A stretch of 64,000 bases of DNA. Origin: Omnitrophica bacterium GWA2_41_15. GTDB lineage: Bacteria; Omnitrophota; Gorgyraeia; Gygaellales; UBA12090. This document shows, in pieces, positions 45,853-61,596 of the stretch; the first letter of the stretch is position 1; every line of letters starts with the position of its first letter. The notes beneath the pieces are model-generated. The model ran no database searches. It was not told the origin of the DNA and saw only the letters and a list, made by a program, of their open reading frames with translations. A program made the translations under genes and the position numbers. The stretch is taken from assembly GCA_919902675.1 (NCBI GenBank), contig CAKKRH010000013.1, positions 47,239 to 111,238 on the forward strand. The letters are read 5' to 3'.

Positions 45853-45952
45853 TAGTTGACAGTTGACAGATGACAGTTGACAGATGAAGATGATAACTCA
45901 CAGTTAACAGATGATAGTTGACAGTAAACAGATCACAGATTACAGTTGACAG
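45853..45952. repeat. Degenerate heptanucleotide tandem array (GTTGACA / GATGACA ... about 14 units)
   Basis: GTTGACAGTTGACAGATGACAGTTGACAGATGAAGATGATAACTCACAGTTAACAGATGATAGTTGACAGTAAACAGATCACAGATTACAGTTGACAG. The array supplies the last codons of the four-helix-bundle gene. Confidence 0.85.
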
Positions 45953-46310
45953 AATCAGAAGATAATGAACTAATAAGACCGTTAATCATTTTTGCTAACT
46001 CGTTGCATTCCTTAGTTAATTCTTCAGAGATCGCTTTCTTAACATAATCCTCTCTAAGAGATATTTCTAACAATGGAACACATTCATAAATAGAACCTCT
46101 GGCAACTCTGAGAAACTGAATAAAATCTTTTTTATGATACCTGCTACTGCCCTCTGCTATATTACAGGATACAGATACCGCGGCCCTTCTCATTTGAGAC
46201 GTAAGGCCAAATATCTCATTATTTGGAAAATTTTTAGTTATTTGGTAAACCTTATCGGCAAAATTAATTGCTTTTTTGTATACTTCCAATTTCTCAAAGC
46301 CAAACCCCAT
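45933..46310 (-). CDS. Four-helix-bundle protein (TIGR02436; '23S rRNA intervening-sequence protein' family)
   Basis: FEKLEVYKKAINFADKVYQITKNFPNNEIFGLTSQMRRAAVSVSCNIAEGSSRYHKKDFIQFLRVARGSIYE is the family signature. Confidence 0.85.
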   Translation of the reverse strand: MGFGFEKLEVYKKAINFADKVYQITKNFPNNEIFGLTSQMRRAAVSVSCNIAEGSSRYHKKDFIQFLRVARGSIYECVPLLEISLREDYVKKAISEELTKECNELAKMINGLISSLSSDSVNCNL

Positions 46311-46350
46311 AGCTTATCTGTGAACTGTCAACCGTGAACTGTGAACTAAT
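46311..46350. repeat. Heptanucleotide array (CTGTGAA / CTGTCAA), inverted relative to 45853..45952
   Basis: The sequence is CTTATCTGTGAACTGTCAACCGTGAACTGTGAACTAAT. Its reverse complement contains GTTGACAGTTCACAG. Confidence 0.8.
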
Positions 46351-46351
46351 A

Positions 46352-46429
46352 TGGTCGGGGCGGCAGGATTTGAACCTACGGCCTCTTGCTCCCAAAGCAA
46401 GCGCTCTAGCCAAGCTAAGCTACGCCCCG
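46352..46429 (-). tRNA. tRNA-Pro (TGG), CCA encoded
   Basis: Manual fold of CGGGGCGTAGCTTAGCTTGGCTAGAGCGCTTGCTTTGGGAGCAAGAGGCCGTAGGTTCAAATCCTGCCGCCCCGACCA. The anticodon loop is TTTGGGA. Confidence 0.9.
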
Positions 46430-46599
46430 TTACAAGTTTTTATATGTATAGATTATCTTTATGACAATATTAAGGATATAGCTGATTGCTAACGGGGCAT
46501 GCCCAATCACAAATTTCTCTATCCTGCTCTAAAGCCTTTTAATTATAGCACTCAAATTAACTTTTGGCAAATAGCTAATTTAGGTATATAATCATTGGC

Positions 46600-49425
46600 A
46601 TGAAGAAAAGGACCCTTAAAAAAATAGCCATCGTCTTCCTCTCCCTGCTGGTTCTTATCTCCTGCGCGATAATCTACCTGAACAAATTCGTCTTGCCGGT
46701 AAAAATCAAGGCCCTGATTATTGAAACCGTGGAAAAACAGACCGGGAAAAGAGCCGCCCTTGAGTCGGTGCGCTTTAACCTGTTCAAGGGGCTGGTGTTA
46801 AAAGAACTGAATTTATACGAAGGACAAAAAAGGATTATCGGGACAAAGGAGGCCTCCTGCAGTTTCCTGATCCTGCCGATTTTAAAAGAGAAAAAAATTA
46901 TTATCCCCTATATTAAAATACAATCTCCCTATATATTTATCTCCCGCGAAGCCGACAACAGCATAAATTTAATCAAATTAATACCGACCCCGGAAAAAAC
47001 AGAAAGCAAGGGCTCACCCTTTGGCCTGATAATTTCAGGAATAAATATTATAGACGCGAATGTTGATTTTGAAGATAAGAGCTTCTCTCCTTCTTTTACC
47101 AAGAGTATTGAAGGCCTCAATCTATCCGCGCGCCTAAATCTGCCGGCCGGGGTAAAATTCAAGCTTAGCGCCAGGCTTAAGACTAATCCCGCCTCCGAAT
47201 TAAACGCTGAGGGTGAATTCCGGCTGATCAATAATGAGCTGACCGCTAAAATCAATCTGAAGAATCTTCCGCCGGAAGAATTCGCTTCTTACTATCACGG
47301 ACTGGGGCTATCAATAAATCAAGGCACAGTAGATGCCTCTCTTAACCTTACATTTAAGGATAACCGCCTAAACGCCGACTCCAAAATACAGTGCAATAAA
47401 ATAACAGCGGTAAAAGATAAAATAACCCTAAAGCTTAATTCCACGATAAGCGCCGGGGTTAACTACAACCTGAAGGACAAACAGCTGGCCTATTCCGGAA
47501 GCGCGGATATTATTGACACTAATGTATCGGGAATCGAGGCTATCGGAGAAATAAACGACATCAGCGCCAGAATAAATTTTGATAACCAAGGCTTAAGTTC
47601 CGATAAAATTATTGCCAACTGCTTTGGCCTAAACCTAACCGCTAAAGCCAGGCTATCCGACTTCAATAATCCAGTGGTCTCTCTAGAGTTAAAATCCGAA
47701 TCAGACTTAAAATCAGCCCAGAACATACTCTCCCAGAAATTCAAGCTCTCTTTACCCGCGGAGCTATCCGGCAAGGGACAACTCTGGGTGAAATTAGAAA
47801 CTCCTCTGCCGCCTAAGGAGATGCCCGCGCTCAGCGGCTCCCTGGGGTTGGTTTCAGCGCAAGCCGTATATAAAGAGTTTGGTCTAATCTTAAATAATAT
47901 CAACGGACCCCTGGAATTCAATCTTAACCAACTTAGCTGGGCGGATATAAGCTTTGACTGGCTGGACTCATCCTATAAAACCGAAGGCTCACTCTCAGAT
48001 TTTAAAGACCCATTGCTTAGCCTGAAGCTTTCCTCATCCGGGCTTAACCTAAGCCGGATTCAGGAAGTAATCTCGGAAAAATTTAAATTAAAAGTCCCGG
48101 TTAATATAGAGGGGTCCGGGAAATTAGCTCTAAAGCTTAAAACCAGGCTGCCGGCGCGGGAAATCCCCCAGATAGACGGCTCATTAGATATCAGCTCTGC
48201 TGATATTAAAATAACTGAATTCAATCAAAGCCTCACCGGCGTCAGGGGACATCTGAAATTCACTCAAAACACCCTCAATTGGTCAAAGGTAAATTTCAAT
48301 TATCTGGATACCGCTTATGCCAGCGAAGGCCGGATGAAAAACTTCCTCTCCCCCTTGATTGACCTGGAGCTTTCCTCTGCCGAACTCAAGCTGAAATCTA
48401 ATATTTGGCTTAACAATAAGCTGATCAAAATATCAGCTTTAGAGGGAAAATATCTTAATTCCAATATCTCCTTGTCCGGCACTATTAACAGCGCTCAAAG
48501 CAAGGCCATCTATGCCGATATCAATGCTGCTCTAGAGATTGACCTAAAAAACCTGGAAAAACCCCTGGCTAAATTTAAAGACCAGCTTGAGAAAATCAAA
48601 CCCGGCGGAATAGTCAAGGCCAGGCTAAACCTAAGCGGCAATATCAACGACTTTAAATCCGCTCAAGGGCATCTGAGGTTGGAAAGCTCATCATTATCCC
48701 TCTACGGGCTCAAGCCGGAGGAATTCATCTTAGATTATAACCAGGCTAACCGCTTAGCCGATATACCGCTGGCCAGAATTTCTTTATACGACGGCAGTAT
48801 AGACGCCAACGCCAAGGTAAATTTAGACAGCCCCAACCTGCCCTTTAAGCTGGAGTTAGGCGTCCAGGGAATCAAAATTGAAAAACTGAAACAGGACACC
48901 CCCTTAAAAACCCAGGACCTTTCCGGCACCCTGGAGGCAATCACCAAGCTTAACGGTTTACTGACTGATTTTTCTAAATTAAGCGGCTCGGGCAAGGTCA
49001 TGATTAAAGAGGGAAGGCTTTGGCAGTTAAACTTCTTTAAAGGTATAGGCGAAATACTCTTTACCAAAGATTTTGCCAATGTGGTTTTTAATGAGGGCTA
49101 CTGCGAATTCTTCATCAAAGACCAATTCCTGTTTACCGATAATCTTAGGCTAAGAAGTAATATCGTGGATTTGGAAGGCAAAGGCAAGGTCGGATTTGAC
49201 GGAACGCTGGATGCCGCGATCAATACCCAGGTAAGCGAAGGCCTGAGCCCGGAAACCGGAACCATAAAGGATTTCACCACCGCCTTAATCGGCCAGGCGG
49301 GAAGATTCGGGGTAATCAAGCTAAGCGGAACAATCCAGGAACCTAAATACAAATTTCAGGCTACGGTAACCGATGTAATGAAGGGGCTTAAAGATTTTGT
49401 GATTGGAAATATTTTCGGACAATAG
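46600..49425 (+). CDS. Large AsmA/TamB-like outer-membrane biogenesis protein
   Basis: 941 aa. An N-terminal TM anchor is followed by a long repetitive beta-rich body with internally repeated segments (e.g. LSDFNNPVVSLELKSESDLKSAQNILSQKFKLSLP / LSDFKDPLLSLKLSSSGLNLSRIQEVISEKFKLKVP). Confidence 0.65.
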   Translation: MKKRTLKKIAIVFLSLLVLISCAIIYLNKFVLPVKIKALIIETVEKQTGKRAALESVRFNLFKGLVLKELNLYEGQKRIIGTKEASCSFLILPILKEKKIIIPYIKIQSPYIFISREADNSINLIKLIPTPEKTESKGSPFGLIISGINIIDANVDFEDKSFSPSFTKSIEGLNLSARLNLPAGVKFKLSARLKTNPASELNAEGEFRLINNELTAKINLKNLPPEEFASYYHGLGLSINQGTVDASLNLTFKDNRLNADSKIQCNKITAVKDKITLKLNSTISAGVNYNLKDKQLAYSGSADIIDTNVSGIEAIGEINDISARINFDNQGLSSDKIIANCFGLNLTAKARLSDFNNPVVSLELKSESDLKSAQNILSQKFKLSLPAELSGKGQLWVKLETPLPPKEMPALSGSLGLVSAQAVYKEFGLILNNINGPLEFNLNQLSWADISFDWLDSSYKTEGSLSDFKDPLLSLKLSSSGLNLSRIQEVISEKFKLKVPVNIEGSGKLALKLKTRLPAREIPQIDGSLDISSADIKITEFNQSLTGVRGHLKFTQNTLNWSKVNFNYLDTAYASEGRMKNFLSPLIDLELSSAELKLKSNIWLNNKLIKISALEGKYLNSNISLSGTINSAQSKAIYADINAALEIDLKNLEKPLAKFKDQLEKIKPGGIVKARLNLSGNINDFKSAQGHLRLESSSLSLYGLKPEEFILDYNQANRLADIPLARISLYDGSIDANAKVNLDSPNLPFKLELGVQGIKIEKLKQDTPLKTQDLSGTLEAITKLNGLLTDFSKLSGSGKVMIKEGRLWQLNFFKGIGEILFTKDFANVVFNEGYCEFFIKDQFLFTDNLRLRSNIVDLEGKGKVGFDGTLDAAINTQVSEGLSPETGTIKDFTTALIGQAGRFGVIKLSGTIQEPKYKFQATVTDVMKGLKDFVIGNIFGQ

Positions 49426-50011
49426 GCCTTATCTTTTTTAAGGCTTTATAGCGATGGCTGAGCTTGTGTTTAATCAAGGGACCTAATTGGCCAAAGGTCT
49501 TCCGGTATTCAGGCAGTAAAAATAAAGGATCATAACCGAATCCATGGGTCCCCTTCGCCTTCAGGGCAATCAAACCGCCGCACCTGCCTCCCACCACCCC
49601 AATCAGGCCATTTTTATCCGCCAGGGCCACAGCACAAACATAATGGGCCGAACGTTTTTTTAGGGGAACTTTCTTAAGCAGACGCAGGACCTTCTGGTTA
49701 TTTTTTTCGTCGCTCTTTCCCTGGCCGGAGAATCTGGAGGAATAAATTCCCGGAGCTCCCAAAAGCGCGTCAATGCACAACCCGGAATCTTCACCCAGGG
49801 TCAGCTTCTTGGTAAATTTGGCTATTTTAATCGCCTTCTTGGCGGCATTCTCCAGGAAGCTCTTTCCGTCTTCGTTAACATAAGGGGCGTCAGGGACATC
49901 CTCAAGGCTCAAGAATTTAATTTTGAGTCCCCGCGTAATTTCCCGTATTTCCTCTAATTTCTTTTGATTGCGGGTAGCAACGACTATCTCTCTTATCTTC
50001 TCTTTACTCAT
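49388..50011 (-). CDS. rdgB: dITP/XTP pyrophosphatase (Ham1/RdgB family)
   Basis: [17 protein letters not shown]...[21 protein letters not shown]...GFGYDPLF...SHRYKAL. Confidence 0.9.
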
Positions 50012-50727
50012 AGAATGTCCTTATAGATATTTCTCTGGATATCCACCAGTTCCTCAATTCCGTTTTTGGCCAAATGTAACATTTTATCCAGATCTTCCTT
50101 ACTAAAGCTCTCCCTTTCCGCCGTGGCCTGGAGCTCAACAAATTCCCCCTTCCCGGTCATTACTACATTCATATCCACCTGGGCCTTAGAGTCTTCCGTA
50201 TAAGCCAAATCCAGGATAAACTGATTCTGATATATGCCCACCGAGGTAGCGGCAATATAATCCTTAATCGGAATATCCAGAATACTGCCTTCTTTCTTCA
50301 TCCGGATAAGACAATCCGCCAGGGCGATAAATCCCCCGGTGATGGCGGCGGTGCGGGTTCCGCCGTCGGCCTGGATAACATCGCAGTCTATCTTAATCGT
50401 ACGCTCACCAATCTTCTTTACCTCAAAAATAGACCTTAACGAACGGCCGATAAGCCTCTGAATCTCAAATGTCCTCCCGGAAACCTTTTCGCGCTCCCGG
50501 TTAATCCGGGTATGGGTGGAGCGGGGCAGCATTCCGTATTCGGCAGTAATCCAGCCGGTGCCGCTTCCCCTTAAAAACGGGGGAACGGTCTCCTCGCAAG
50601 AGGCGGTGCAGATAACCTTGGTATGGCCCAGCTCAATCAGGCAGGAGCCTTCCGCGTGTTTAATATAATTACGGCTGATAGTAACTTTTCTTAATTGATC
50701 ATTATTTCTTCCATCTGGTCTGGGCAT
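50008..50727 (-). CDS. rph: Ribonuclease PH
   Basis: [41 protein letters not shown]...[17 protein letters not shown]. Confidence 0.9.
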
Positions 50728-51233
50728 TCTAATCCTTTTTCTTTAAATTGTTTATAAACACTGTTGCCTTGAGAATCAACAGCCACAATAAGAGGAAAAT
50801 CCTTGACCTCTAATTCATAAATCGCCTCCGGGCCCAGGTCAAGATAGGCCACAAGGGTCTTTTTCTTAATCTGCCGGGCAAGCAGTGCCCCGCACCCAGA
50901 ATAGGTAACGAAATACACCGCCTGATATTTCCGGATAGCCGCGATCACATCTGGAGAGCGGTTTCCTTTGCCGATCATCGCGCTTAAACCTAATTTTAAC
51001 AATGGCAGGGTAAAACCGTCCATCCTTGAGCTGGTAGTTGGGCCGCAGGAGCCGATGATTTTACCTTTGGGGGTTTCAGTCGGGCCAGAGTAATAAATAA
51101 TGCCGCCTTTTAAATCAATCGGCAGTTTCCGGCCGGAATGTATCGCCTCAACCAGCCTCCGGTGGGCCTGGTCCCTGGCGGTATATAATTTTCCGGTATA
51201 AGAAATCTCTTCTCCCGCCTTTAAGTGTCTCAT
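50691..51233 (-). CDS. Class I (Fe-S) fumarate hydratase / hydro-lyase, beta (C-terminal domain) subunit
   Basis: [14 protein letters not shown]...GPTTSSRMD...MIGKGNR. Confidence 0.8.
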
Positions 51234-52084
51234 ATTATCTTTACCGCCGACCTTAAGGCGTGACAGCTGATATTCACCGCCACCGGCAGGCCGGCAATAT
51301 GGGTGGGATAACTTAAAATATTTACCCCTAAGCAGGTAGTCTTTCCGCCTAAACCCATCGGCCCGATATTTAAATTATTTATCTCCTTCAATAACTCTTT
51401 TTCTAACTTATAAATTTTTTGATTTGTGTTTTTGACTTTTGACTTTTGACTTTTGACTTTATTCAACAGCGCCTTTTTAGCTAAATATGCCGCGTAATCC
51501 TGGGTCCCTCCGATTCCTATGCCCAGCACAAACGGCGGACAGGCATCCGGCCCGGCCTTTGCAACTGTCTCCAGAATAAACCTTTTAATCTCCTCAAGAG
51601 AGGCTGTGGGCTTAAACATCCGGATTTGGGATTTGTTTTCACAGCCAAAACCTTTGGGTAAAAGGGAAAGCTTGATTTTATCCCCTGGGACGATTTCGGT
51701 ATGGATTATTGCCGGACTAAACCCGGAACCTCCCCGCGAAAGAGGGTCTTTGACTATTGAGCGGCGCAGGCTCCCCTGGGCATAGCCCAGCGCCAGGCCT
51801 TGGTGTATCGCCCCAGCTAAAGAACCGCCGGTTACGCGCGCCTCCTGGCCAATCTCCCCAAACACAACCGGCAATCCGGTATCCTGACAAATAGCCAGCT
51901 TTTCTTTTTTGGCGATTTCAGCATTATTAATTATGGCCTTAAGGATTTTCCGGGAGCGCTGATCCCCCTCTTTAAGCAAGGCTGATTTCAAAGCGCCTAA
52001 GACATCCTTACGTAAAACAAAATTCGCTTCTTTGGCCAAATCCGCGGCCGCGGCCCTAATTTTATCTACTTTTATCTCACGCAT
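51230..52084 (-). CDS. Class I (Fe-S) fumarate hydratase / hydro-lyase, alpha (N-terminal domain) subunit
   Basis: LAICQDTGLPVVF...GIGIGGT. It contains a low-complexity insert KVKSQKSKVKNTNQK encoded by a TTTTGAC heptamer array at 51421..51461. The start is set at MREIKVDK. Confidence 0.8.
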   Translation of the reverse strand: MREIKVDKIRAAAADLAKEANFVLRKDVLGALKSALLKEGDQRSRKILKAIINNAEIAKKEKLAICQDTGLPVVFGEIGQEARVTGGSLAGAIHQGLALGYAQGSLRRSIVKDPLSRGGSGFSPAIIHTEIVPGDKIKLSLLPKGFGCENKSQIRMFKPTASLEEIKRFILETVAKAGPDACPPFVLGIGIGGTQDYAAYLAKKALLNKVKSQKSKVKNTNQKIYKLEKELLKEINNLNIGPMGLGGKTTCLGVNILSYPTHIAGLPVAVNISCHALRSAVKII

Positions 52085-52529
52085 TTTTTGACTCCGGCCA
52101 CTGTGCGCGCACACTGGTGGTTATCCCGCCGCGGGGGTTAAATACGCCGCTGATTTTCACCCAGCGCGGGCAACAGGCGCTGACAAAATCATCCAAAATC
52201 CGGTTCACCAAATGCTCATGAAAAATCCCCACATCCCGGTAAAACAACAGATACAGCTTAAAAGACTTAAGCTCAACGCAATACTCCGCCGGAGAATACT
52301 CGATTCTTATATCCGCGAAATCCGGCAGTCCGGTCTTGGGACAAATGCAGGTAAATTCCGAAGTATCCAGGGTTATCGCGTATTCTTTATCCGGATACTG
52401 ATTCTTCCAGACCTCAATCCGGGGAGTTTTCAGGGCCCGGACATTCCCTTGCAATCCTTCATAAGAAGACTGTTTTTTTTCTTTTATCTTTAACTTTTGA
52501 TTTTTAATTTTTGATTTTTGATTTTTCAC
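52077..52529 (-). CDS. queF: NADPH-dependent 7-cyano-7-deazaguanine reductase
   Basis: EFTCICPKTGLPDFADIRIEYSPAEYCVELKSFKLYLLFYRD. The N-terminus MKNQKSKIKNQKLKIKEKK is encoded by a TTTTTGA heptamer array (52494..52528). Confidence 0.85.
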   Translation of the reverse strand: MKNQKSKIKNQKLKIKEKKQSSYEGLQGNVRALKTPRIEVWKNQYPDKEYAITLDTSEFTCICPKTGLPDFADIRIEYSPAEYCVELKSFKLYLLFYRDVGIFHEHLVNRILDDFVSACCPRWVKISGVFNPRGGITTSVRAQWPESKNA

Positions 52530-53232: not shown

Positions 53233-53961
53233 CTAACTTCCAACCTCTAACTTTCCTATCAATGGATCCGCGGCCCGGGCTTCCCGAAACCCCTTGGCCC
53301 TAAAATTACAGCTGTCGCACTTACCGCAAGGCTTCCTTCCGCCTTGATAACAAGACCAGGTCAGCTCATAAGGAACTCTTAGGCGCGTTCCCAATTTTAT
53401 TATCCCGCCCTTAGTCATCTTTATTAGGGGAGTGAAAATACTAAACCCCCGTCCTTCTACTCCGGCCTTAGTCCCCAGATTGACCGCTCTTACAAGGGCC
53501 CGGTAGAACTCCGGACGGCAATCAGGATAACCGCTATAATCTATGGCGTTAGCTCCGATAAATATATTCCCGGCTCCAATAGCCTCAGCCCAAGACAAGG
53601 CGAAGCTTAAGAAAATAATATTCCTCGCCGGCACATAGGTTGAAGGGATTGAGTTGCTTGAGTTACTTGAGTTTATAGAGTTTGTTGAGTTGCGGCTCTG
53701 GCTTACTGTTTTATCTAATCCCGGAATTTCTAATTTCTTATCTAATAAACTCGAGCCTTTCCAAGGCAAGGATATCTTTATCACCTGCCAGGGACAGACG
53801 GCGCGTTGAGCTATTTTCTTGGCCGAAGCAATCTCTTTTTTGTGGCGCTGGCCGTAGTCAAAGATAAGGCAATGGCACTGGAAACCTTTGGCTTTGGCAA
53901 AATAAAGGGTAGTGGCCGAATCCAGTCCGCCGGATAAGAGTACAACCGCCTTTTTCCTCAT
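53233..53961 (-). CDS. queC: 7-cyano-7-deazaguanine synthase
   Basis: KAVVLLSGGLDSAT...YVPARN...CGKCDSC. It has an internal low-complexity insert SQSRNSTNSINSSNSSNS encoded by a 9-nt periodic repeat at 53641..53700. Confidence 0.9.
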   Translation of the reverse strand: MRKKAVVLLSGGLDSATTLYFAKAKGFQCHCLIFDYGQRHKKEIASAKKIAQRAVCPWQVIKISLPWKGSSLLDKKLEIPGLDKTVSQSRNSTNSINSSNSSNSIPSTYVPARNIIFLSFALSWAEAIGAGNIFIGANAIDYSGYPDCRPEFYRALVRAVNLGTKAGVEGRGFSIFTPLIKMTKGGIIKLGTRLRVPYELTWSCYQGGRKPCGKCDSCNFRAKGFREARAADPLIGKLEVGS

Positions 53962-55155: not shown

Positions 55156-56271
55156 TTAATATGACGCGCCGGCTAATTCGTATTGCCGGCTGTAATTGAT
55201 TATTCCGTCAGAGATGGCTTCGGCAATCTGCTGGCGGTAGAAATTATTCCTTAAATATTTTTCCTCTTTAGGGTTAGACAAGAAACCGGTCTCAATCAAA
55301 ACCGCGGGAATATGAGCGCCTTTTAAGACATAAAACGGCGCGCCTTTTACCCCCAAAATCTTTAAACCCATATTCCTCTCGGCTGACTCGCAGATATTCT
55401 GAGCCAGGCGGATAGATTCCAGGCGGCTGGAAGTATAAACCATATCCCAAAGCGTAGTTTTAAGATCCAGGGAATTGCCGTAAAAAGAACTGCTGTCTAT
55501 ATTCAAATCAGCGCTCTTGGCCGAAAAAATGGCCCGGGAGTAATCATTCACTTTCTCGGTTATATAATAAACCTCAAAGCCGTTTAATTTACCCGAAGCG
55601 GCGGAATTAGAGTGGACGCTGATGAATAAATCCGCTCTTGAACGGTTGGCGATATCCGCCCTCCCCTGGAGGCTGATAAATTTATCCGTGGAACGGGTCA
55701 TCACCGCTTCAATGCCCTGGGCTTTTAAAAACTGGGCTAAGCGCCGGGCGATATCCAGGTTCACATCCTTTTCCCTTAAGCCGGTTTTTCCTATGGCCCC
55801 GGGGTCGTGGCCGCCGTGGCCGGCATCAATCACTACCTTTTTTATCTGTTTTTCCAGGATATATTTCGGTTTTTCTTCAGGGATAGCCTCCAAATAAAAC
55901 TTATCAATCACCTTTTCTTTAAACTTTAGAGGCACCGCGGTAAATCCGTTATGGGTAATCACCGGATACTCGATATCCAAAGGCAGGCCATTAACCAGAA
56001 CCACTGAGGCATCCAGTAAAAGCCTGGCTTCAACATTCGCCTTTCTTAAAGTAACCTGCCTGCCGATATAATCATACTCCCACAAGATATTAAAATGCCG
56101 GCAGAGGCTTAGAAGCGGGATATAAACGGTATTATTGACGGAAAAACTTTCTACCGGAAGCCCTGTTTTTTGAATACGGCCGGTTGTGGCGCAGCCGGTC
56201 AAAAGAACAGATAACAGATAACAGATAACAGATAACAGAACGAGATGCTGTTTCTTAGATAAAATCATCAT
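55156..56271 (-). CDS. N-acetylmuramoyl-L-alanine amidase (Amidase_3) with an N-terminal stalk domain
   Basis: VVIDAGHGGHDPGA...ISVHSNS...ETGFLSN. The lipobox-like signal is LLTGC. The signal-peptide region LLSVICYLLSVLL is encoded by an ACAGATA heptamer array (56207..56241). Confidence 0.85.
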   Translation of the reverse strand: MMILSKKQHLVLLSVICYLLSVLLTGCATTGRIQKTGLPVESFSVNNTVYIPLLSLCRHFNILWEYDYIGRQVTLRKANVEARLLLDASVVLVNGLPLDIEYPVITHNGFTAVPLKFKEKVIDKFYLEAIPEEKPKYILEKQIKKVVIDAGHGGHDPGAIGKTGLREKDVNLDIARRLAQFLKAQGIEAVMTRSTDKFISLQGRADIANRSRADLFISVHSNSAASGKLNGFEVYYITEKVNDYSRAIFSAKSADLNIDSSSFYGNSLDLKTTLWDMVYTSSRLESIRLAQNICESAERNMGLKILGVKGAPFYVLKGAHIPAVLIETGFLSNPKEEKYLRNNFYRQQIAEAISDGIINYSRQYELAGASY

Positions 56272-57189: not shown

Positions 57190-57192
57190 AGC

Positions 57193-58770
57193 TTACTCAA
57201 GCTGCATTTGAACTTCAAATTCTTTTTGGCCGGCGGAGCGCGCCGTCGCGGAAAACTTAATATTCCTGAATATGCCCGCTTCCAGCTTACGGATAAATCC
57301 GGAAAAGGCATCCGGCTGGTCTTTAGTTGAGGTAATCACTCCCTTAAGGGTTAAAATACCGCCTTGCGCGTTCATCTGGGTGAGGTATATCTCATTAGGG
57401 ATGCAATTGCCGATTTCCTTAAAAACATCCTCCCAGTAAGGCTCTCGCGATAAAGCGTCATTTATTAAATTCCGCTCTTTGGCCTCGCCAAAGCGGGTAT
57501 TTAAAAAAAACAGTTCTGATTTCACCGCGTTTATTTTTTTGTCTAAATTAGCCGCGCTTAGGCGCAATCCCATAAAAGTAAGGACCAAAATAGTTATTGC
57601 CGCGCTCAAGCCCGCCTTTAAAGCCGCCCTCTCCATAAGGCGCTTTACATCCTCCCTTATCCCAAAGGGAAGGAAATTTATTCCATCGGCTTTATTTATT
57701 CCGCAGCCGACAGCTATGGCTATACTGCTGATTTCGTGATCTTCGCTTGGTTCTTTACTTACCTGAATTCCTTCCCAGGAATTATAGACCTCAACCTCTA
57801 TGGCTAATTCCTTAGCTAAGAACTTATCCAAACCCTTCAAACTCGCGCTTCCTCCAAAAAGAATCAACTTATCTACCTTAGCTCCTCCTGTTTCTTCACG
57901 GTAAAAATCAAAGGAGCGGCCGATTTCATTGGCCAGCTTCTCTAAGGGGGCCATCAATAAAGAATGAAGCTGGGCGTTAGAAATCTTATTCTCAACCAGT
58001 TCTGAATTGATTTTCTCAGGAATTCCGTATTCATTTTTTATCCTTTGCGCCTCTGAATAAGAAAGCTCTATTTTGCCTGAGGCCGTAGAGAGGGCGCTGG
58101 TTAAGGCCCGGGTAAAGTCATCGCCGGCCACCGGGACTTTACGGTTAAACATAAACTTGCCATCGCGAATGATTATCAAATCAGACAAGCTCTTTCCTAT
58201 GTCTATTGCCGCGACGCTTAAATTTTCCTTAAATTTTTTAAACTTAAGCAGATTGAACATCGCCAGGGCCGAACTGACAACCATCCGCGGCCTGATACCT
58301 AATCCATCCAGGAAGCCGAGATGTTCTTCTATTGTCCTATGAGGGCACACCCCCACCAATATTTCTTTCTTCTTAACCCCATTCTCAAGAATATCCCCGG
58401 TTACTTCAAAATCAACCAGTGAATCCTCAATAGAAAAAGGGAAATAATTCTTAGCTTCTAAGGACACCGCCTCTTTTAATTCATTATCCGGCATCATCGG
58501 CACAACCGCCCTTTTAATCATAGAATAAGGCGAATCCAGCAAGGTAACTATTTTGGAGTTTTTCGCCTCGGAGGCCGAAAACAATTCTTTAAGGATACGC
58601 GCCGGCTCTTTATCCTTTTCCAGGTCAATAATCTTAACCTTGGTTAAATAAAAAGCGCCTTCCTCCTGCTTAAGCTGGGCTGATTTTATAAAACTGGTGC
58701 CGATATCCAGGCCAATGCTATACTTTTTCTTAGGAAAAAATCCGTTTGTTATCAGGCTTTCCATATTCAT
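57193..58770 (-). CDS. PilM-PilN fusion (actin-like ATPase-fold assembly protein + TM/periplasmic PilN part)
   Basis: The N-terminal IGLDIGTSFIKSAQL is the PilM-like actin fold. A later TM segment (LKAGLSAAITILVLTFMGL) is followed by a PilN-like tail. Confidence 0.7.
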   Translation of the reverse strand: MNMESLITNGFFPKKKYSIGLDIGTSFIKSAQLKQEEGAFYLTKVKIIDLEKDKEPARILKELFSASEAKNSKIVTLLDSPYSMIKRAVVPMMPDNELKEAVSLEAKNYFPFSIEDSLVDFEVTGDILENGVKKKEILVGVCPHRTIEEHLGFLDGLGIRPRMVVSSALAMFNLLKFKKFKENLSVAAIDIGKSLSDLIIIRDGKFMFNRKVPVAGDDFTRALTSALSTASGKIELSYSEAQRIKNEYGIPEKINSELVENKISNAQLHSLLMAPLEKLANEIGRSFDFYREETGGAKVDKLILFGGSASLKGLDKFLAKELAIEVEVYNSWEGIQVSKEPSEDHEISSIAIAVGCGINKADGINFLPFGIREDVKRLMERAALKAGLSAAITILVLTFMGLRLSAANLDKKINAVKSELFFLNTRFGEAKERNLINDALSREPYWEDVFKEIGNCIPNEIYLTQMNAQGGILTLKGVITSTKDQPDAFSGFIRKLEAGIFRNIKFSATARSAGQKEFEVQMQLE

Positions 58771-58785
58771 CTTAGGTTAGGCAGT

Positions 58786-59874
58786 TTAAATCGCGGGAAC
58801 TATCTCGTTCCAGTCTTTTTGAAATACAACCACCAGGTCGCCTCCGGAAGAATAGGTGAAGGCAGGCGGCATAGGCGCGAAAATATTATCATTATAATTA
58901 ATGGTGATGCCGCTTCCATTACCCATGGAAAAATTACCCCCCGCCAATATTGTGCCGTTAAAAGTAGAATTTTTCACATCATCAAAAGTGATATTATTTT
59001 GGGCTAAAATCAATCCATTTATGGTGCTATTCTGCAGGCCGATCTTTTGGCTGGGAATGCCGGTCGCGCTGGTGCTCATATTATTCTTGGCTGCCAGCGC
59101 CGGGTAATTAGTAAGAGGACTGGGGGTTACCTGGACATTATCGGCCCTGTTGACAAACTGGATATCGCTATCCGAAAAGATAGAGCCGTTTATTATGGCA
59201 TTATTGCCTATAGTAACCCCCCTGGTTACATACCATACACCGCTGTAGGTACCGTTTTCAAAGGTATAACTGCCGGTGATAAGCTGTCCGGAGGCTAAAG
59301 CCAGGCTCTTGTAATAATCGAAGTCTAAAGTGGGATTAATCATCGGAAAATTCTCGGTAAGAGTGCCGTTGATAGTCATACCCGCGTAATTTGTTATATG
59401 CACATGACAGCTGATATTACCGTTTATTACCCCGGTTGAGCCGGTAAAATCAACCGTACTGCCGTCAGCATGAATACTGCGCACCAAAACCGAAGAGGAA
59501 AAGGCCGCGCTGGCCCCTATCTGTCGGCTCATTGTGTTAACCGTGCCCAAAGAAGTAAAAGCATAAATACTTCCGCTTTTAACGGCGCTTACGGAATAAA
59601 CGCCGTTACCCAGAGAACCGCTAATTGTAGTAGGGCTAGTTTGGTAATTAGCGTCGTTTTTTAAGGTATATAAAGCCTTTTGCAACCCCGCCTCAGCCAG
59701 CCAGAGGGCCTGACTGCCGGACATATCATATCCTGAACCTTTTAGCCGCAGGGAACTCATATATAAGAACGCGATTACCACGGCAGTTAAGGTGGTCAAT
59801 ATTATGAAGGTAAGTAATAATGCTGTTCCTTTCTTCGCAAACGAGCGAACGGGGATAGCGGACGGCTTGATCAT
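58786..59874 (-). CDS. PilX-like minor pilin / pilus-tip associated protein
   Basis: The N-terminus KGTALLLTFIILTTLTAVVIAFLYMSS is PilX_N-like. It is followed by a Gly/Asn/Thr-rich beta-helix-like body. Confidence 0.5.
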   Translation of the reverse strand: MIKPSAIPVRSFAKKGTALLLTFIILTTLTAVVIAFLYMSSLRLKGSGYDMSGSQALWLAEAGLQKALYTLKNDANYQTSPTTISGSLGNGVYSVSAVKSGSIYAFTSLGTVNTMSRQIGASAAFSSSVLVRSIHADGSTVDFTGSTGVINGNISCHVHITNYAGMTINGTLTENFPMINPTLDFDYYKSLALASGQLITGSYTFENGTYSGVWYVTRGVTIGNNAIINGSIFSDSDIQFVNRADNVQVTPSPLTNYPALAAKNNMSTSATGIPSQKIGLQNSTINGLILAQNNITFDDVKNSTFNGTILAGGNFSMGNGSGITINYNDNIFAPMPPAFTYSSGGDLVVVFQKDWNEIVPAI

Positions 59875-60497
59875 AGGTTTCTCGGCCTCACCTGCGTCCT
59901 TGACCTTATGGTTTCATCGCCTCTTTTTATACTCAAATCCAGGGTAATTAAATTAGCGCTTATCGACAAATCTGAAGTCGCCGGAGGCAATGCTTCAGTA
60001 ATTATAATCGAGCCAGAGCCATAGGTGAATGTTCCGCTTATGCCGCCGGAAAGCTCAGCTTTCCTTAATTGATACGAACCCTGGCTAAAGCTCGGGGGAT
60101 AAGAGTCATTGGCGTTATAAAAATAATAAATATAATAGGCGATTAGGTTATGGGTAAACCTGATCTCGTCATTATTAACAGACTGGGCCTGCCTTGCCTT
60201 CCTTAGATCCCGGACCATTTCTTCAATTCCCCTGTCTAAGGCTATGTCAATGCCTGTCCTGGTTTCCTGGCTGTGCCAGCTTAAAAGCACCGCGCGAAAA
60301 ACAAAGGCGCTCACTCCCACCAAAACCACCAGCATTAAAATCGTAATAATAAGTTCTATTAGCGTGAACCCCGTTACACCCCGCCCTGAAGGACGGGGCT
60401 TTCTTGATGATCTAATTTTTATTTGCCATTTATCCCCGCTTTGAGAAGCGGGGCTTTCTGGGTGTAACGGGGTGAATCCCTGACGCGTTTTTTTCAA
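59871..60497 (-). CDS. Prepilin-type N-terminal cleavage/methylation domain protein (minor pilin)
   Basis: The prepilin signal is G-FTLIELIITILMLVVLVGV. The true start may be internal to the tracked ORF. Confidence 0.7.
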   Translation of the reverse strand: MKKTRQGFTPLHPESPASQSGDKWQIKIRSSRKPRPSGRGVTGFTLIELIITILMLVVLVGVSAFVFRAVLLSWHSQETRTGIDIALDRGIEEMVRDLRKARQAQSVNNDEIRFTHNLIAYYIYYFYNANDSYPPSFSQGSYQLRKAELSGGISGTFTYGSGSIIITEALPPATSDLSISANLITLDLSIKRGDETIRSRTQVRPRNL

Positions 60498-60539
60498 CTC
60501 TTTACTTTCCTTGTCTCGGCCTTCAACTGCTGACAGCCT

Positions 60540-60923
60540 TTAATAATTCGCCACCAGCGTGGTCAGGGTAATATTGGCTTGGCCTCTCAAAACATTCCAA
60601 GACACGGTTACATCTACCGGCATAGGGTTTTGGCCTTCACCTACATTAACCGCGGTATTAAAATTGGAAAAGTGAGAATCCGTTGTGGGGCCGCTATCCG
60701 CGAGGCTGGCGAATGGAGTATTTTTTATTTCCTCCATTTTTGCCTGGGCGATATTTAAGGCTAAATCAATATTTTCAATATCGCTCGTGGCGGACATACC
60801 CGCGCTGAAGGCCCAGATTATCGCGATAACCCCAGCGGTAAAAATAAGCAGGGCAATCATAAGCTCTAACAGACTAAAGCCATCCCGAGCCTTCCCCGGC
60901 TGATACCTAACATTTAGTAACAT
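60540..60923 (-). CDS. Prepilin-type minor pilin (PilV-like)
   Basis: DGFSLLELMIALLIFTAGVIAI. Confidence 0.7.
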   Translation of the reverse strand: MLLNVRYQPGKARDGFSLLELMIALLIFTAGVIAIIWAFSAGMSATSDIENIDLALNIAQAKMEEIKNTPFASLADSGPTTDSHFSNFNTAVNVGEGQNPMPVDVTVSWNVLRGQANITLTTLVANY

Positions 60924-60965
60924 CGGAATTTTACCCGCTAAGACAGTGAATTTGAGACCGTTGCA

Positions 60966-61082
60966 AAATCCTAAAACCTTTATCTTGAAATATTTCCGTA
61001 TAAGATCCTTCGTCGGGACTTACATCCCTCCTCAGGATGAGATTGTTTAAAAACAGAGTTTTTCAACAATCTCAATTTAGGG
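60966..61082 (-). repeat. Structured intergenic element of about 120 nt, copy 1 (after the major pilin gene)
   Basis: Homologous to 62835..62959. On the minus strand it has a 16-bp hairpin GAGATTGTTGAAAAAC-TCT-GTTTTTAAACAATCTC, then GGGAT-GTAA-GTCCC. Confidence 0.7.
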
Positions 61083-61526
61083 CTGTAAATCCTGGCCGAT
61101 GTTAGAGGCATAAATACAGCTTGAGCCGTTGGTTTCAACCACGGCATCGCTGGTAATAACAGCGCTTCCGTTTCCAGCCGGGCCAACCGAATAAATAATA
61201 TAAAATTTGCTGTTGGTCCCGCCCATTACATATACATAATCAGCTCCTGTGCCGCTGAAGGGGTCGGTAGGCACATAAGTTATAATGCTTGGGACGGCCG
61301 CGGCTAAAGCGGTCTGGAGAGCGGCGGCAGTAGTAGCCGGGTAAGTATTACTGTTGTGAATATAATAACTCTCTACCGCGGTTTGCAGTGTCCGCAACTC
61401 GCCTTTGGCCTTGGCGATATTTCCCTCATCCTGCATACCCTTAAAGCGGGGCAAAGAAATCCCGATTAAGATAGAGATTACCGCAATAACAATCAACAAT
61501 TCAATCAAGGTAAAACCTTTCTTCAT
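61077..61526 (-). CDS. Major pilin / GspG-like pseudopilin
   Basis: MKKGFTLIELLIVIAVISILIGISLPRFKGMQDEGNIAKAKGELRTLQTAVESY. Confidence 0.85.
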   Translation of the reverse strand: MKKGFTLIELLIVIAVISILIGISLPRFKGMQDEGNIAKAKGELRTLQTAVESYYIHNSNTYPATTAAALQTALAAAVPSIITYVPTDPFSGTGADYVYVMGGTNSKFYIIYSVGPAGNGSAVITSDAVVETNGSSCIYASNIGQDLQP

Positions 61527-61547
61527 CTTCCCTCCTTTTTAAATTAG

Positions 61548-61596
61548 TCTGTGATCTGTAGACTGTGAACTGTGAACTATCAACTGTGAACTAATC
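61548..61596. repeat. Heptanucleotide array (CTGTGAA family) between pilC and the pilin gene
   Basis: CTGTGATCTGTAGACTGTGAACTGTGAACTATCAACTGTGAACTAATCA. Confidence 0.8.

What the first reader, a model, noticed from the sequence alone, without database searches (positions are those of the whole stretch)
45853..61596. STRR-like degenerate heptanucleotide tandem arrays at gene borders and inside conserved enzymes
**Period-7 arrays** recur at six loci in 16 kb:
- GTTGACA-type at 45853..45952
- CTGTGAA at 46311..46350
- CTGTGAA at 61548..61596
- TTTTGAC at 51421..51461
- TTTTTGA at 52494..52528
- ACAGATA at 56207..56241

A seventh array, at 53641..53700, has 9-nt periodicity.

**Several lie within coding sequence**, where three heptamers make a 7-aa periodic peptide:
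- an insert KVKSQKSKVKNTNQK in fumarate hydratase alpha
- the QueF N-terminus MKNQKSKIKNQKLKIK
- the amidase signal peptide LLSVICYLLSVLL
- a Ser/Asn insert in QueC

This resembles the short tandemly repeated repetitive (STRR) heptamers known from heterocystous cyanobacteria. Here they invade otherwise conserved housekeeping proteins. None is seen in the accessory 0-44 kb part, which argues that the arrays are a property of the host core genome.
Basis: partly seen in the sequence, partly recalled or inferred. Interest (0 to 1): 0.55.

Follow-up and report, generated by a model that had tools for sequence, protein, structure and literature searches.

The report
Heptamer repeats flanking an IVS gene
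The 7-base tandem repeats are real features of an uncultured Omnitrophota genome. The two largest are the mirror-image ends of a small selfish element carrying a "23S rRNA intervening-sequence protein" gene wedged between two tRNA genes, and the same gene-plus-inverted-repeat design appeared in all 21 relatives sampled from other phyla.

Summary
All seven arrays exist at the stated coordinates. No dinucleotide shuffle produced a comparable array. The arrays are identical in four strain-level sequence versions. The genome is an Omnitrophota from Hainich groundwater.

"STRR-like" fits as a description but misses the structure. Arrays 45852-45960 and 46318-46349 are inverted copies of one unit family (WTNACAG). 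They begin with the same TTAGTTSACAG terminus and enclose a PF05635 gene (23S rRNA IVS protein, bAvd-like), 2 nt from tRNA-Pro and 2 nt from tRNA-Arg. The arms pair into a roughly 30-bp helix that closes the inter-tRNA transcript.

This cassette sits at the same site in at least four other Omnitrophota. In 21 of 21 sampled PF05635 loci the gene is flanked by period-7 or period-8 arrays. These loci come from Omnitrophota, Methylomirabilales, Ratteibacteria, a deltaproteobacterium, cyanobacteria, Azospirillum and Gemmatirosa. In 14 of 17 loci with measurable units, the two flanking units are reverse complements.

The experimentally studied Coxiella IVS has GACAGAT heptamers at its RNase III site, so RNA-level excision is the likely mechanism here. 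That step is inferred.

The remaining arrays are solo copies. One lies in the pilin 5' UTR. The others are translated: a lipoprotein signal peptide, the QueF N-terminus, and loops in FumA and QueC. No phase variation was seen.

The parts
45852..45960 (-). 3' arm of the IVS-type element. It holds about 14 heptamers, CTGTNAN on the coding (-) strand and TTAG(TTGACAG)n on the + strand. It overlaps the last 7 codons of the PF05635 ORF and ends 2 nt before the 5' end of tRNA-Arg.
   Evidence: TRF; sequence; pattern scan; pairs with the 5' arm.
45933..46310 (-). PF05635 gene of 125 aa (23S rRNA intervening-sequence protein, also called S23p or four-helix-bundle protein, bAvd-like). This is the cargo of the element.
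   Evidence: Pfam 2.8e-39. PDB 2GSC at 3e-18 and 2RLD, each deposited with 5 chains. Homologues of 61-72% identity in Omnitrophota.
46318..46349 (-). 5' arm of the element: TTAG TTCACAG TTCACGG TTGACAG TTCACAG. It starts 2 nt after the CCA end of tRNA-Pro and ends 7 nt before the ATG of the PF05635 gene.
   Evidence: The same arm, with 3.6-4.3 copies, occurs in L084, L089, L091 and L263.
46352..46429 (-). tRNA-Pro(UGG), the upstream neighbour of the element in the same transcription direction.
   Evidence: ARAGORN; Rfam.
45774..45849 (-). tRNA-Arg(UCU), the downstream neighbour of the element.
   Evidence: ARAGORN; Rfam.
61549..61594 (-). Solo copy of the 5' arm: TTAG plus 6 units of TTCACAG type, followed by ACTAAT. 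It fills the spacer between the GspF-like stop codon (61595-61597) and the SD/ATG of the major pilin-like gene (61526).
   Evidence: It is 88% identical over 33 nt to 46318-46350, including the CTAAT terminus (family D3).
56206..56239 (-). (CTGTTAT)x4.9 on the coding strand, i.e. in the orientation of the 3' arm. It is translated as the hydrophobic core of the lipoprotein signal peptide of the N-acetylmuramoyl-L-alanine amidase (LVLLSVICYLLSVLLTGC).
   Evidence: It is 70% identical to the 3' arm (family D1). The M48 peptidase in L264 1096-1125 has the same arrangement.
51430..51460 (-). (GTCAAAA)x4.4, translated as KVKSQKSKVK in a loop of the class I fumarate hydratase alpha subunit.
   Evidence: Related A-rich arrays occupy the same loop in L004 and L005.
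52495..52526 (-). (ATCAAAA)x4.6 immediately after the GTG start of QueF. That start overlaps the QueE stop codon as GTGA. The array is translated as the N-terminal extension KNQKSKIKNQK.
   Evidence: The extension is absent from all QueF relatives.
53649..53693 (-). Nonamer array (AACTCAANN)x5, translated as the Ser/Asn-rich insert in a variable QueC loop.
   Evidence: It shares the exact 23-mer AACTCAACAAACTCTATAAACTC with the array upstream of the tmRNA gene (L264 4587-4662).
43029..44629 (.). Serine recombinase gene (43029-44564, +) abutting tRNA-His (44553-44629, -). This is the junction between the array-free island and the array-bearing core DNA.
   Evidence: L089 and L194 have the same arrangement.

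Best explanation
**What the arrays are**
The window's short tandem arrays belong to dispersed repeat families of an Omnitrophota core genome:
- heptamer WTNACAG
- heptamer RTCAAAA
- nonamer AACTCAANN

**The two largest arrays are one element**
- They are the inverted terminal arms of a 498-bp IVS-type selfish element (45852-46349).
- Both arms start with TTAGTTSACAG.
- The element carries a PF05635 gene, is co-oriented with the tRNA genes, and lies 2 nt from each tRNA.

**Proposed mechanism**
1. The element is transcribed as part of the tRNA-Pro / tRNA-Arg precursor.
2. The arms pair into a roughly 30-bp helix with regularly spaced mismatches.
3. By analogy with 23S rRNA intervening sequences, RNase III cuts this helix. 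RNase P and the tRNA 3' processing enzymes act alongside, at the two tRNA ends.
4. Both tRNAs are released intact, and the PF05635 RNA is excised. The insertion is therefore harmless to the host operon.

**The other arrays are solo copies that survive where tolerated or useful**
- one in the 5' UTR of the pilin gene
- one as the hydrophobic core of a lipoprotein signal peptide
- one in the QueF N-terminus
- one each in surface-variable loops of FumA and QueC

Within coding sequence only length changes that are multiples of three can persist.

**Shown versus inferred**
- Shown: the anatomy, the arm complementarity, conservation across species and phyla, translation frames, and lack of population variation.
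- Inferred: RNase III cleavage, co-transcription, and the way arrays are copied between loci.
For: **Anatomy and pairing in the window**
- Anatomy.
- Duplex of the two arms: -37.2 kcal/mol, against -14.7 +/- 3.3 for shuffles (z = -6.7) and -12.7 for the wrong-orientation control.
- The MFE and centroid folds of the whole 502-nt inter-tRNA RNA both close with this terminal helix.

**Same cassette in other Omnitrophota**
- tRNA-Pro / TTAG(TTCACAG)~4 / PF05635 / (CTGTNAA)n-CTAA / tRNA-Arg occurs in L084, L089 and L263.
- L194 shows the 3' half of the same cassette.
- The protein is 61-69% identical, and L089 and L194 are syntenic with the window.

**Generality across phyla**
- 21 of 21 PF05635 loci chosen without regard to repeats have flanking period-7 or period-8 arrays.
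- By the TRF threshold, 12 of the 18 loci scored that way have arrays on both sides. Random sites in 1.3 Mb of control loci give 0.6% per side and 0 of 20000 on both sides.
- The unit sequence differs by lineage. In 14 of 17 loci the 3' unit is the reverse complement of the 5' unit within 1 mismatch, against 6% for cross-locus pairings.
- These genes lie between co-oriented genes of conserved gene clusters: nuoC|nuoD, biotin-lipoyl|MCM, cas10|cmr3 and cas6|cas4.

**Experimental precedent (PMC4990558)**
- The Coxiella IVS carries an S23p ORF and a 28-bp terminal stem.
- RNase III cleaves it in vitro.
- It has tandem GACAGAT heptamers upstream of the ORF, starting at the 5' cleavage site. The copy number is 2 or 3 depending on the strain.

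**Solo arrays**
- Identity to the arms.
- Ortholog comparisons.
- Two lipoprotein signal peptides encoded by CTGTNAN arrays.
- Stability across four sequence versions.
Against: - There are no expression or cleavage data for this organism, and an RNase III gene was not looked for.
- The helix has a mismatch in almost every heptamer. In the window and L084 the 5' units are consistently TTCACAG while the 3' units are rc-TTGACAG. That looks like conservation of each arm for itself as much as conservation of pairing.
- Two of the 17 loci with measurable units (L262, L274) have direct rather than inverted immediate flanks.
- Most arrays of this unit type elsewhere are not next to a PF05635 gene: only 3-4 of 120 metagenome loci are, and the Nostoc locus L019 has 10 arrays and no such gene. 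The gene is therefore not needed in cis for arrays to exist.
- The link between the A-rich FumA/QueF arrays and the element is weak, at 2 mismatches per unit.
- The PF05635 gene lacks a Shine-Dalgarno sequence.
Confidence: 0.7

Rival explanations
1. The arrays are ordinary polymerase-slippage microsatellites (long simple sequence repeats, with the heptamer class favoured by the replication machinery). They have no function and no real link to the PF05635 gene. They simply accumulate wherever selection is weak.
For: - Heptanucleotide repeats are reported as the commonest long SSR class in repeat-rich prokaryotes (Mrazek 2007, as summarised in PMC4679880).
- TTNACAG x3 arrays occur in metagenome contigs with GC from 0.21 to 0.73.
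- Most of those arrays are solo and not near a PF05635 gene.
- The coding copies sit in variable loops and termini.
Against: - 21 of 21 PF05635 loci have flanking arrays, against 0.6% of control sites.
- The arms are reverse complements in 14 of 17 loci even though the units differ by lineage.
- The 5' arm keeps its sequence, its roughly 4 copies and its position in Omnitrophota whose proteins are only 61-69% identical.
- Near-identical copies, including non-repeat termini and a unit-switch junction, occur at distant loci. That points to copying rather than independent slippage.
- No length variation is seen among four strain-level versions.
Confidence: 0.12
2. The arrays are binding sites for an oligomeric nucleic-acid-binding protein. 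The obvious candidate is the pentameric, ring-shaped PF05635 protein itself, and another 5'-UTR-binding factor is also possible. In this view the arrays act in autoregulation, translation control or mobilisation rather than as an RNase III stem.
For: - The modal arm length is about 4-5 units in many lineages.
- 2GSC and 2RLD, homologues of the window protein, are each deposited with 5 chains, and the XCC0516 homologue (2GSC) is described as a toroidal homopentamer (PMC4990558).
- Each arm's own unit (TTCACAG versus CTGTCAA) is conserved despite the mismatch it creates.
- Five of 8 heptamer arrays of this genome lie within 35 nt of a start codon. This resembles the TAACTGA repeats for which a post-transcriptional regulator was proposed (PMC4679880).
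Against: - There is no binding evidence for any member of the family.
- Arm copy number ranges from 3 to 20.
- The unit sequence differs greatly between lineages while the protein stays recognisably conserved.
- The Coxiella protein was not detectably made.
- This explanation is compatible with the RNase III model rather than exclusive of it.
Confidence: 0.12
3. The arrays are contingency loci. Gain or loss of heptamer units by slippage switches genes on and off (phase variation).
For: - A 7-nt unit shifts the reading frame.
- One array precedes a pilin gene and one lies in a cell-wall amidase, which are typical classes of phase-variable genes.
- Coxiella strains differ by one heptamer.
Against: - The window and three independent assemblies differ by 13-15 SNPs but show no indel or SNP in any array.
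- The coding arrays lie in single-copy housekeeping genes (fumarate hydratase, QueF, QueC), where a frameshift would simply be deleterious.
- The 5' arm has the same roughly 4 copies in distant relatives.
Confidence: 0.03
4. The arrays are assembly artefacts.
For: Short repeats can be mis-assembled. L194 shows a suspicious triple repetition of the segment made of the PF05635 gene's 3' end, the array and a tRNA-Arg 5' fragment.
Against: - Array lengths are identical in four sequence versions from different samples and assemblers.
- Reading frames through the arrays are intact.
- Homologous arrays occur in relatives and in finished genomes of cultured cyanobacteria.
Confidence: 0.01

Closest known systems
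23S rRNA intervening sequences carrying an S23p/PF05635 ORF (Coxiella burnetii, Leptospira; PMC4990558)
   Same: - It has the same cargo gene family (Pfam 2.8e-39).
- It is a few hundred nt long.
- Complementary termini form a helix of about 28-30 bp.
- Tandem heptamers of the same unit type (Coxiella GACAGAT; here ATGACAG, TTGACAG and AACAGAT) lie in the 5' arm just upstream of an ORF without a good SD.
- It is embedded in, and co-oriented with, a stable-RNA transcription unit.
   Different: - The host site is a tRNA-Pro / tRNA-Arg spacer rather than helix 25 or 45 of 23S rRNA.
- Both arms are built of heptamer arrays, and the 3' arm is expanded to 14 units and runs into the ORF.
- RNase III cleavage is untested here.
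- In other phyla the same design sits between protein-coding genes.
STRR (short tandemly repeated repetitive) heptamers of heterocystous cyanobacteria
   Same: - They are tandem heptanucleotide arrays of a few to about 15 copies.
- There are several unit families per genome, dispersed and mostly at gene borders.
- In this study the PF05635 genes on Nostoc, Calothrix, Trichormus and Anabaena plasmids are flanked by such arrays.
   Different: - The phylum is different (Omnitrophota).
- The unit sequences are different.
- A large share of the copies here are translated.
- As far as the searched literature shows, STRRs were never tied to a gene family or to an inverted-arm architecture.
TAACTGA heptamer direct repeats of marine Beggiatoaceae, Cyanobacteria and Bacteroidetes (MacGregor 2015, PMC4679880)
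   Same: - They are short heptamer arrays (2-6 copies, sometimes up to 43) concentrated within a few nucleotides upstream of start codons.
- A few lie inside ORFs.
- They have a patchy phylogenetic distribution with no known vehicle.
- Arrays 46318-46349 and 61549-61594 occupy the same kind of position.
   Different: - The unit is different.
- That study reports almost no inverted pairs (1 of 170) and does not mention PF05635 genes.
- Here the arrays are paired around a gene and adjoin tRNA genes.
Phase-variable simple sequence repeats (contingency loci)
   Same: They are tandem short units whose copy-number change would shift the reading frame or alter a 5' UTR.
   Different: No copy-number variation is seen here, the arrays sit in housekeeping genes, and copy number is conserved across species.
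REP/BIME elements and MITE-like intergenic hairpins
   Same: - They are dispersed intergenic elements with inverted symmetry that fold in the transcript.
- Gene-less versions exist in the related loci studied here: L087 2691-2790, L254 1260-1426, L258 3535-3601.
   Different: The arms are tandem arrays of a 7-nt unit rather than a unique palindrome, and many copies carry a conserved protein gene in the loop.

Membership tests
IVS-type element with S23p/PF05635 ORF | Carries an ORF of the PF05635 (23S_rRNA_IVP) family | tested here: met
   Pfam 2.8e-39, 134 bits against a cut-off of 33.8. PDB 2GSC at 3e-18.
IVS-type element with S23p/PF05635 ORF | Complementary termini able to form a stable stem of about 20-30 bp around the ORF | tested here: met
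   Duplex of -37.2 kcal/mol, z = -6.7. The terminal helix is present in the MFE and centroid folds of the full 502-nt RNA. Both termini read TTAGTTSACAG.
IVS-type element with S23p/PF05635 ORF | Inserted in a helix of the 23S rRNA gene | tested here: not met
   The element lies between tRNA-Pro and tRNA-Arg. There is no rRNA in the window.
IVS-type element with S23p/PF05635 ORF | Excised from the precursor by RNase III | not testable with these tools
   This needs RNA mapping or an in vitro assay. The precedent is PMC4990558.
IVS-type element with S23p/PF05635 ORF | Tandem heptamers upstream of the ORF, as in Coxiella (GACAGAT) | tested here: met
   Four units of TTSACAG lie 7 nt upstream of the ATG. 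Coxiella description.
STRR of heterocystous cyanobacteria | Tandem repeats with a 7-nt unit, in many dispersed copies | tested here: met
   There are 7 heptamer arrays in 27 kb of core DNA.
STRR of heterocystous cyanobacteria | Host is a heterocystous cyanobacterium and the units match the STRR consensus sequences | tested here: not met
   - The best relatives are Omnitrophota MAGs.
- The units here are WTNACAG and RTCAAAA.
- The published STRR units are recalled from memory only and were not checked in a paper.
Long simple sequence repeats, heptanucleotide class (Mrazek 2007) | Tandem arrays of a 5-11 nt unit that are longer than expected by chance in that genome | tested here: met
   Zero of 60 shuffles reach score 46, against 6 observed. 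The definition is as summarised in PMC4679880.
Phase-variable contingency repeats | Copy number differs among cells or strains and toggles expression | tested here: not met
   There is no indel in any array among the window and 3 assemblies. Read-level data were not available.
TAACTGA-type start-codon-proximal heptamer repeats | Direct heptamer repeats ending within a few nucleotides upstream of start codons | tested here: inconclusive
   - Two arrays end 7 nt and 22 nt upstream of an ATG.
- Three more start 3-30 nt downstream of a start codon.
- The unit differs from TAACTGA.

The most novel reading that the evidence does not exclude
PF05635 'IVS protein' genes, together with their inverted short-tandem-repeat arms, form one widespread family of selfish, RNA-excised elements. 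These elements colonise rRNA genes, tRNA spacers and intergenic spacers of conserved gene clusters across bacterial phyla. In this reading the unexplained heptamer arrays of cyanobacteria (STRR), Beggiatoaceae, Omnitrophota and others are the arms, gene-less derivatives and solo relics of such elements. The arrays might also be made or moved with the help of the Avd-like protein. Some arrays have since been co-opted as coding sequence, for example as signal peptides.
Probability: 0.25. Interest if true: 0.85.

Novelty: new variant of a known kind. Interest (0 to 1): 0.66.

Why it matters
Heptanucleotide tandem arrays (STRR and long SSRs) have been catalogued in bacteria since 1990 without an accepted origin or function. 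PF05635 is a large family with solved structures and no known role outside its distant Avd relatives.

This window links the two. The link held in all 21 sampled loci from several phyla, including cultured Nostoc, Calothrix and Anabaena strains. It therefore gives a concrete, testable model, in which the arms form an RNase III helix that makes insertions into stable-RNA and operon transcripts harmless.

The window also extends intervening sequences from rRNA genes to tRNA gene clusters and to intergenic spacers of protein-coding gene clusters. It further shows repeat arrays being translated into working parts of proteins, including two lipoprotein signal peptides. That is a neat case of non-coding repeats being recruited as coding sequence.

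For annotation, it explains why these small genes break assemblies, and why low-complexity inserts appear in conserved enzymes of such genomes.

Tried and rejected
1. **Assembly artefact.** Rejected: four sequence versions are gap-free through all arrays.
2. **Phase variation.** No length polymorphism was found, and the coding arrays lie in housekeeping genes.
3. **Known RNA families.** An Rfam scan of 43-64 kb at E<=0.01 found only the three tRNAs.
4. **Array-first metagenome scan (TTNACAG x3).**
   - The aim was to see whether the arrays mark tRNA or PF05635 loci in general.
   - They do not: 120 loci with GC from 0.21 to 0.73, only 3-4 near a PF05635 gene and 3 near a tRNA.
   - The unit as such is therefore widespread, and the association runs gene to arrays, not arrays to gene.
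   - A viral-contig scan gave 42 unrelated-looking hits and was not pursued.
5. **Inverted partner for the pilin-spacer array.** None was found in the window.
6. **Column-wise covariation of the arm helix within Omnitrophota.** This was not attempted.
7. **Group I intron in the L084 tRNA-Arg.** The roughly 340-nt insert in the anticodon loop got no Rfam hit at gathering score.
8. **Strict perfect pairing of the arms.** Rejected. A mismatch recurs in most heptamers, so the helix is imperfect.
9. **Literature.** Searches for any paper linking PF05635, S23p or four-helix-bundle genes with heptamer repeats found only the single-species note in the Coxiella IVS paper.


Full report
**Source and organism**

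The QueC protein of the window is encoded on ENA contig Hain_H52_02um_R1_4 (157 kb, Hainich groundwater) and on contigs from two other ENA assemblies. The best relatives of QueC in species-representative genomes are Candidatus Omnitrophota MAGs at 58-62% identity. The exact PF05635 protein of the window is named by NCBI as coming from a Candidatus Omnitrophota bacterium, and it lies on a 2.15-Mb contig. The host is therefore an uncultured Omnitrophota.

**Checking the observation**

TRF finds period-7 arrays at 45854-45952, 46318-46347, 51430-51460, 52495-52526, 56206-56239 and 61549-61592. It finds a period-9 array at 53649-53693 and no period-7 array in 1-45853.

- Sixty dinucleotide shuffles gave no period-7 array with score >=46, against six observed.
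- The quoted peptides are in the ORFs as stated, and Pfam confirms fumarate hydratase alpha, QueF, QueC and Amidase_3.
- Three further assemblies align to the window with no gaps. They differ by 13-15 SNPs, none inside an array.

The arrays are therefore real, non-random and stable at strain level.

**Unit families**

Read on the coding (-) strand, the arrays fall into families.

- Family WTNACAG / CTGTNAW:
  - 45852-45960, + strand TTAG(TTGACAG)n
  - 46318-46349, - strand TTAG TTCACAG TTCACGG TTGACAG TTCACAG
  - 56206-56239, + strand ATAACAG
  - 61549-61594, - strand TTAG(TTCACAG)n
  - A three-unit pattern with <=3 mismatches matches 22 times, all in these four arrays, against 0.15 expected.
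- Family RTCAAAA: the FumA and QueF arrays.
- Nonamer family AACTCAANN: the QueC insert.

**What lies between the first two arrays**

The 378-nt ORF at 45933-46310 (-) is a PF05635 protein (23S_rRNA_IVP, E = 2.8e-39; weak bAvd match). It is homologous to 2GSC and 2RLD, each deposited with five chains; the Coxiella paper describes the XCC0516 structure (2GSC) as a toroidal homopentamer.

The ORF sits between tRNA-Pro(UGG) at 46352-46429 and tRNA-Arg(UCU) at 45774-45849, all on the - strand. The two arrays are in inverted orientation. Both begin with TTAGTTSACAG, and each is 2 nt from the adjacent tRNA. The unit is thus a 498-bp element spanning 45852-46349.

As RNA, the arms form a roughly 30-bp helix with single mismatches.

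- The duplex energy is -37.2 kcal/mol, against -14.7 +/- 3.3 for shuffles and -12.7 for the wrong orientation.
- The MFE and centroid folds of the entire 502-nt inter-tRNA transcript both close with this helix.

The 3' arm has expanded to 14 units and supplies the last seven codons of the ORF. Homologues are 118-120 aa, while this protein is 125 aa.

**Conservation in Omnitrophota**

- P0013, P0038 and P0037 (61-69% identity) lie in the same cassette: tRNA-Pro, then TTAG(TTCACAG) at about 4 copies, then the gene, then (CTGTNAA)n-CTAA, then tRNA-Arg (L084, L089/L091, L263).
- L089 is also syntenic beyond the cassette: RNase PH, Ham1, the cassette, DUF748, tRNA-His, serine recombinase.
- L194, found through its arrays, shows the same 3' half.
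- In L087 (P0008) the gene lies between tRNA-His and tRNA-Arg(CCG). Every spacer of that five-tRNA cluster is filled with heptamer arrays, several as gene-less inverted pairs.

A non-coding 32-nt arm that keeps its sequence, copy number and position while the protein drifts to about 65% identity is under constraint or is continually homogenised.

**Generality**

Further homologues from other lineages show the same design.

- Methylomirabilales (L254): the gene lies between the biotin-lipoyl and methylmalonyl-CoA mutase genes. Arms are GATGACC and GGTCATC.
- Ratteibacteria (L258): the gene lies between nuoC and nuoD. Arms are AGTTSAT and CTATGAA.
- A deltaproteobacterium (L262).
- Three more genes on two unnamed contigs (L278 with two genes, L280).

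A tblastn search of 72,556 plasmids found the family in 27 records, almost all cyanobacterial: Nostoc 10, Calothrix 4, plus Trichormus, Anabaena and others. The ten regions I fetched all have flanking arrays. Examples:

- Calothrix: AGGGTGT and CTACACC
- T. variabilis: TCAGAAT and ATTCTGA
- N. punctiforme: TCAGGAG and CTGACTC
- Anabaena 90: GGTGACA and CTGTCAC
- Azospirillum: GAGGACG and its complement
- period-8 units in Picosynechococcus, Leptolyngbya and Gemmatirosa

Several of these genes sit inside cas operons (cas10|cmr3, cas6|cas4).

The counts are as follows.

- 21 of 21 loci have arrays.
- All 18 loci scored by TRF thresholds have an array on at least one side, and 12 have arrays on both sides.
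- Random sites in 1.3 Mb of unrelated loci give 0.6% per side and 0 of 20000 on both sides.
- In 14 of 17 loci with defined units, the 3' unit is the reverse complement of the 5' unit within one mismatch, against 6% for cross-locus pairs.
- Duplex energies are strongest on the diagonal for lineages with distinct units.
- Two loci (L262, L274) have direct immediate flanks, with an inverted array further upstream.

**Link to known biology**

The Coxiella burnetii IVS is a 428-nt element in 23S rRNA helix 45. It has an S23p (PF05635) ORF and a 28-bp terminal stem, and RNase III cleaves it in vitro. The paper notes two or three tandem GACAGAT heptamers, depending on the strain, upstream of the ORF and starting at the 5' cleavage site (PMC4990558).

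That unit belongs to the same family as the window's ATGACAG and AACAGAT. The window's element is therefore an IVS-type element in a tRNA spacer rather than in rRNA. RNase III excision is the most economical mechanism, helped here by RNase P and by 3' processing at the abutting tRNAs. This step is inferred.

Papers on bacterial heptamer repeats do not mention this gene family: MacGregor 2015 on TAACTGA, Rehm 2015 on GGGNATC, and the summary given there of Mrazek 2007. Targeted searches found no other paper making the link.

**The other arrays**

- **61549-61594.** This array fills the spacer between the GspF-like stop codon and the pilin SD. It is 88% identical over 33 nt to the 5' arm, including the TTAG / CTAAT termini. 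No inverted partner was found. It is a solo arm in the 5' UTR of a probably highly expressed gene.
- **56206-56239.** This is (CTGTTAT)x4.9 in the 3'-arm orientation. It encodes the hydrophobic core of the amidase lipoprotein signal peptide (LVLLSVICYLLSVLLTGC). Relatives have an unrelated h-region 4 aa shorter. Just beyond the window, an M48 peptidase has the same feature: CTGTCAA CTGTCAT CTGTGTA CTGTTAA encodes FLSTVICVLLTTFSGC (L264 1096-1125).
- **QueF.** The array lies directly after a GTG start that overlaps the QueE stop codon (GTGA). There is no later in-frame start, so it is probably translated. Relatives lack the 19-aa extension.
- **FumA.** The array adds 10 aa relative to L007 and L010, and 5 aa relative to the solved M. 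jannaschii-type structure 7XKY, in a stretch that varies in length among homologues. L004 and L005 carry different A-rich heptamer or octamer arrays in the same loop. The site is either old or a recurrent hot spot.
- **QueC.** The insert (13-18 aa) is a nonamer array. It shares an exact 23-mer, spanning a switch between two unit variants, with an eight-copy array in the smpB-ssrA spacer. That spacer also holds inverted TTGAGTCTA units (L264 4546-4662). This argues for copying between loci.

Five of the eight heptamer arrays in this genome sample lie within 35 nt of a start codon.

**Core versus island**

The region 0-44 kb holds type I R-M, MazF/HTH, subtilase and histidine kinase genes. It ends at a serine recombinase abutting tRNA-His. 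Nine more kb to the left hold DpnII R-M, AbiEii and Fic genes and again no arrays. Nine more kb to the right (core DNA) add one heptamer and one nonamer array.

**Limits**

- Most arrays of this unit type in metagenomes are not next to a PF05635 gene: 3-4 of 120 are. Twenty-four of 120 have an inverted partner within 600 nt.
- The direction of causality is open. The elements may bring the arrays, or the genes may survive best inside array hairpins.
- The helix is imperfect, and each arm keeps its own unit, which leaves room for a protein-binding role.
- No expression data exist for this organism.

**Verdict**

The arrays are best filed as heptamer long-SSR/STRR-like repeats of an Omnitrophota. 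Their core is an IVS-type PF05635 element in a tRNA spacer, which is a new variant of a known kind. The cross-phylum association between PF05635 genes and inverted short-tandem-repeat arms was not described in the literature I could search.

Noticed in passing
window 60973-61082 and 62850-62959 (- strand): A roughly 110-nt structured repeat occurs in two copies that are 87-89% identical, in two spacers of the pilus/T2SS-like operon. It folds into three hairpins (z = -3.6). The first hairpin shows a compensatory TT/AA to GC/GC change between the copies. Rfam gave no match.
   Followed up: partly
L264 4546-4662 (same contig, about 4 kb beyond the window's right end): The smpB-ssrA spacer holds (TTGAGTCTA)x2.6 followed by the inverted (AACTCAACA/AACTCTATA)x8.4, ending 5 nt before the tmRNA gene. 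This is the same nonamer family as the QueC insert, and the two share an exact 23-mer.
   Followed up: partly
L264 1096-1125 (same contig, about 7.7 kb beyond the window's right end): A CTGTNAN heptamer array encodes the h-region of the lipoprotein signal peptide of an M48 peptidase (MFSKNFFLSTVICVLLTTFSGC). This is a second case beside the amidase.
   Followed up: yes
L084 2700-3090; L263 2340-2560: In L084 the tRNA-Arg downstream of the PF05635 cassette is interrupted in its anticodon loop by an insert of about 340 nt. ARAGORN did not call it, and Rfam gave no group I intron hit at gathering score. In L263 a tRNA-Arg 5' fragment is duplicated ahead of an insert. Small GIY-YIG genes (80-86 aa) lie nearby in L084, L263 and L264.
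   Followed up: partly
L194 135-430: A segment is repeated three times in tandem. It consists of the last codons of the PF05635 gene, a heptamer array and the first 17 nt of tRNA-Arg. The copies hold 6, 4 and 4 heptamers and are joined at a CAGTT microhomology. This is either a real duplication or strain variants collapsed by the assembler.
   Followed up: no
window 1-44629, and L266 beyond the left end: A large defence or accessory island carries type I R-M, DpnII-type R-M, AbiEii, Fic, an HTH-M78-MazF fusion and a subtilase. It is bounded by a serine recombinase whose 3' end overlaps tRNA-His by 12 nt. Relatives L089 and L194 also have a serine recombinase at this tRNA-His.
   Followed up: partly
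L087 2380-3730: This is a five-tRNA cluster (Pro, Arg, His, Arg, Lys). Each tRNA is followed by a short near-perfect AT-rich hairpin (for example AAAATTTCACCATGTGAAATTTT) and then by heptamer arrays. The Pro-Arg spacer uses a different unit family (GCYATNT).
   Followed up: no
L262 2302-3723: In a deltaproteobacterial contig, several heptamer arrays (GTTCACC, GGACAAC, CAACGGA) lie inside the called DegT-type aminotransferase gene. At 473 aa that gene is longer than usual. Arrays inside coding sequence are therefore not peculiar to the Omnitrophota genome.
   Followed up: no
window 52495-52526: The QueF array unit on the + strand, TTTTGAT, is the same heptamer as the ToxT/H-NS-binding repeats of the Vibrio cholerae ctxAB promoter (title seen). 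This is probably a coincidence of an A/T-rich unit.
   Followed up: no
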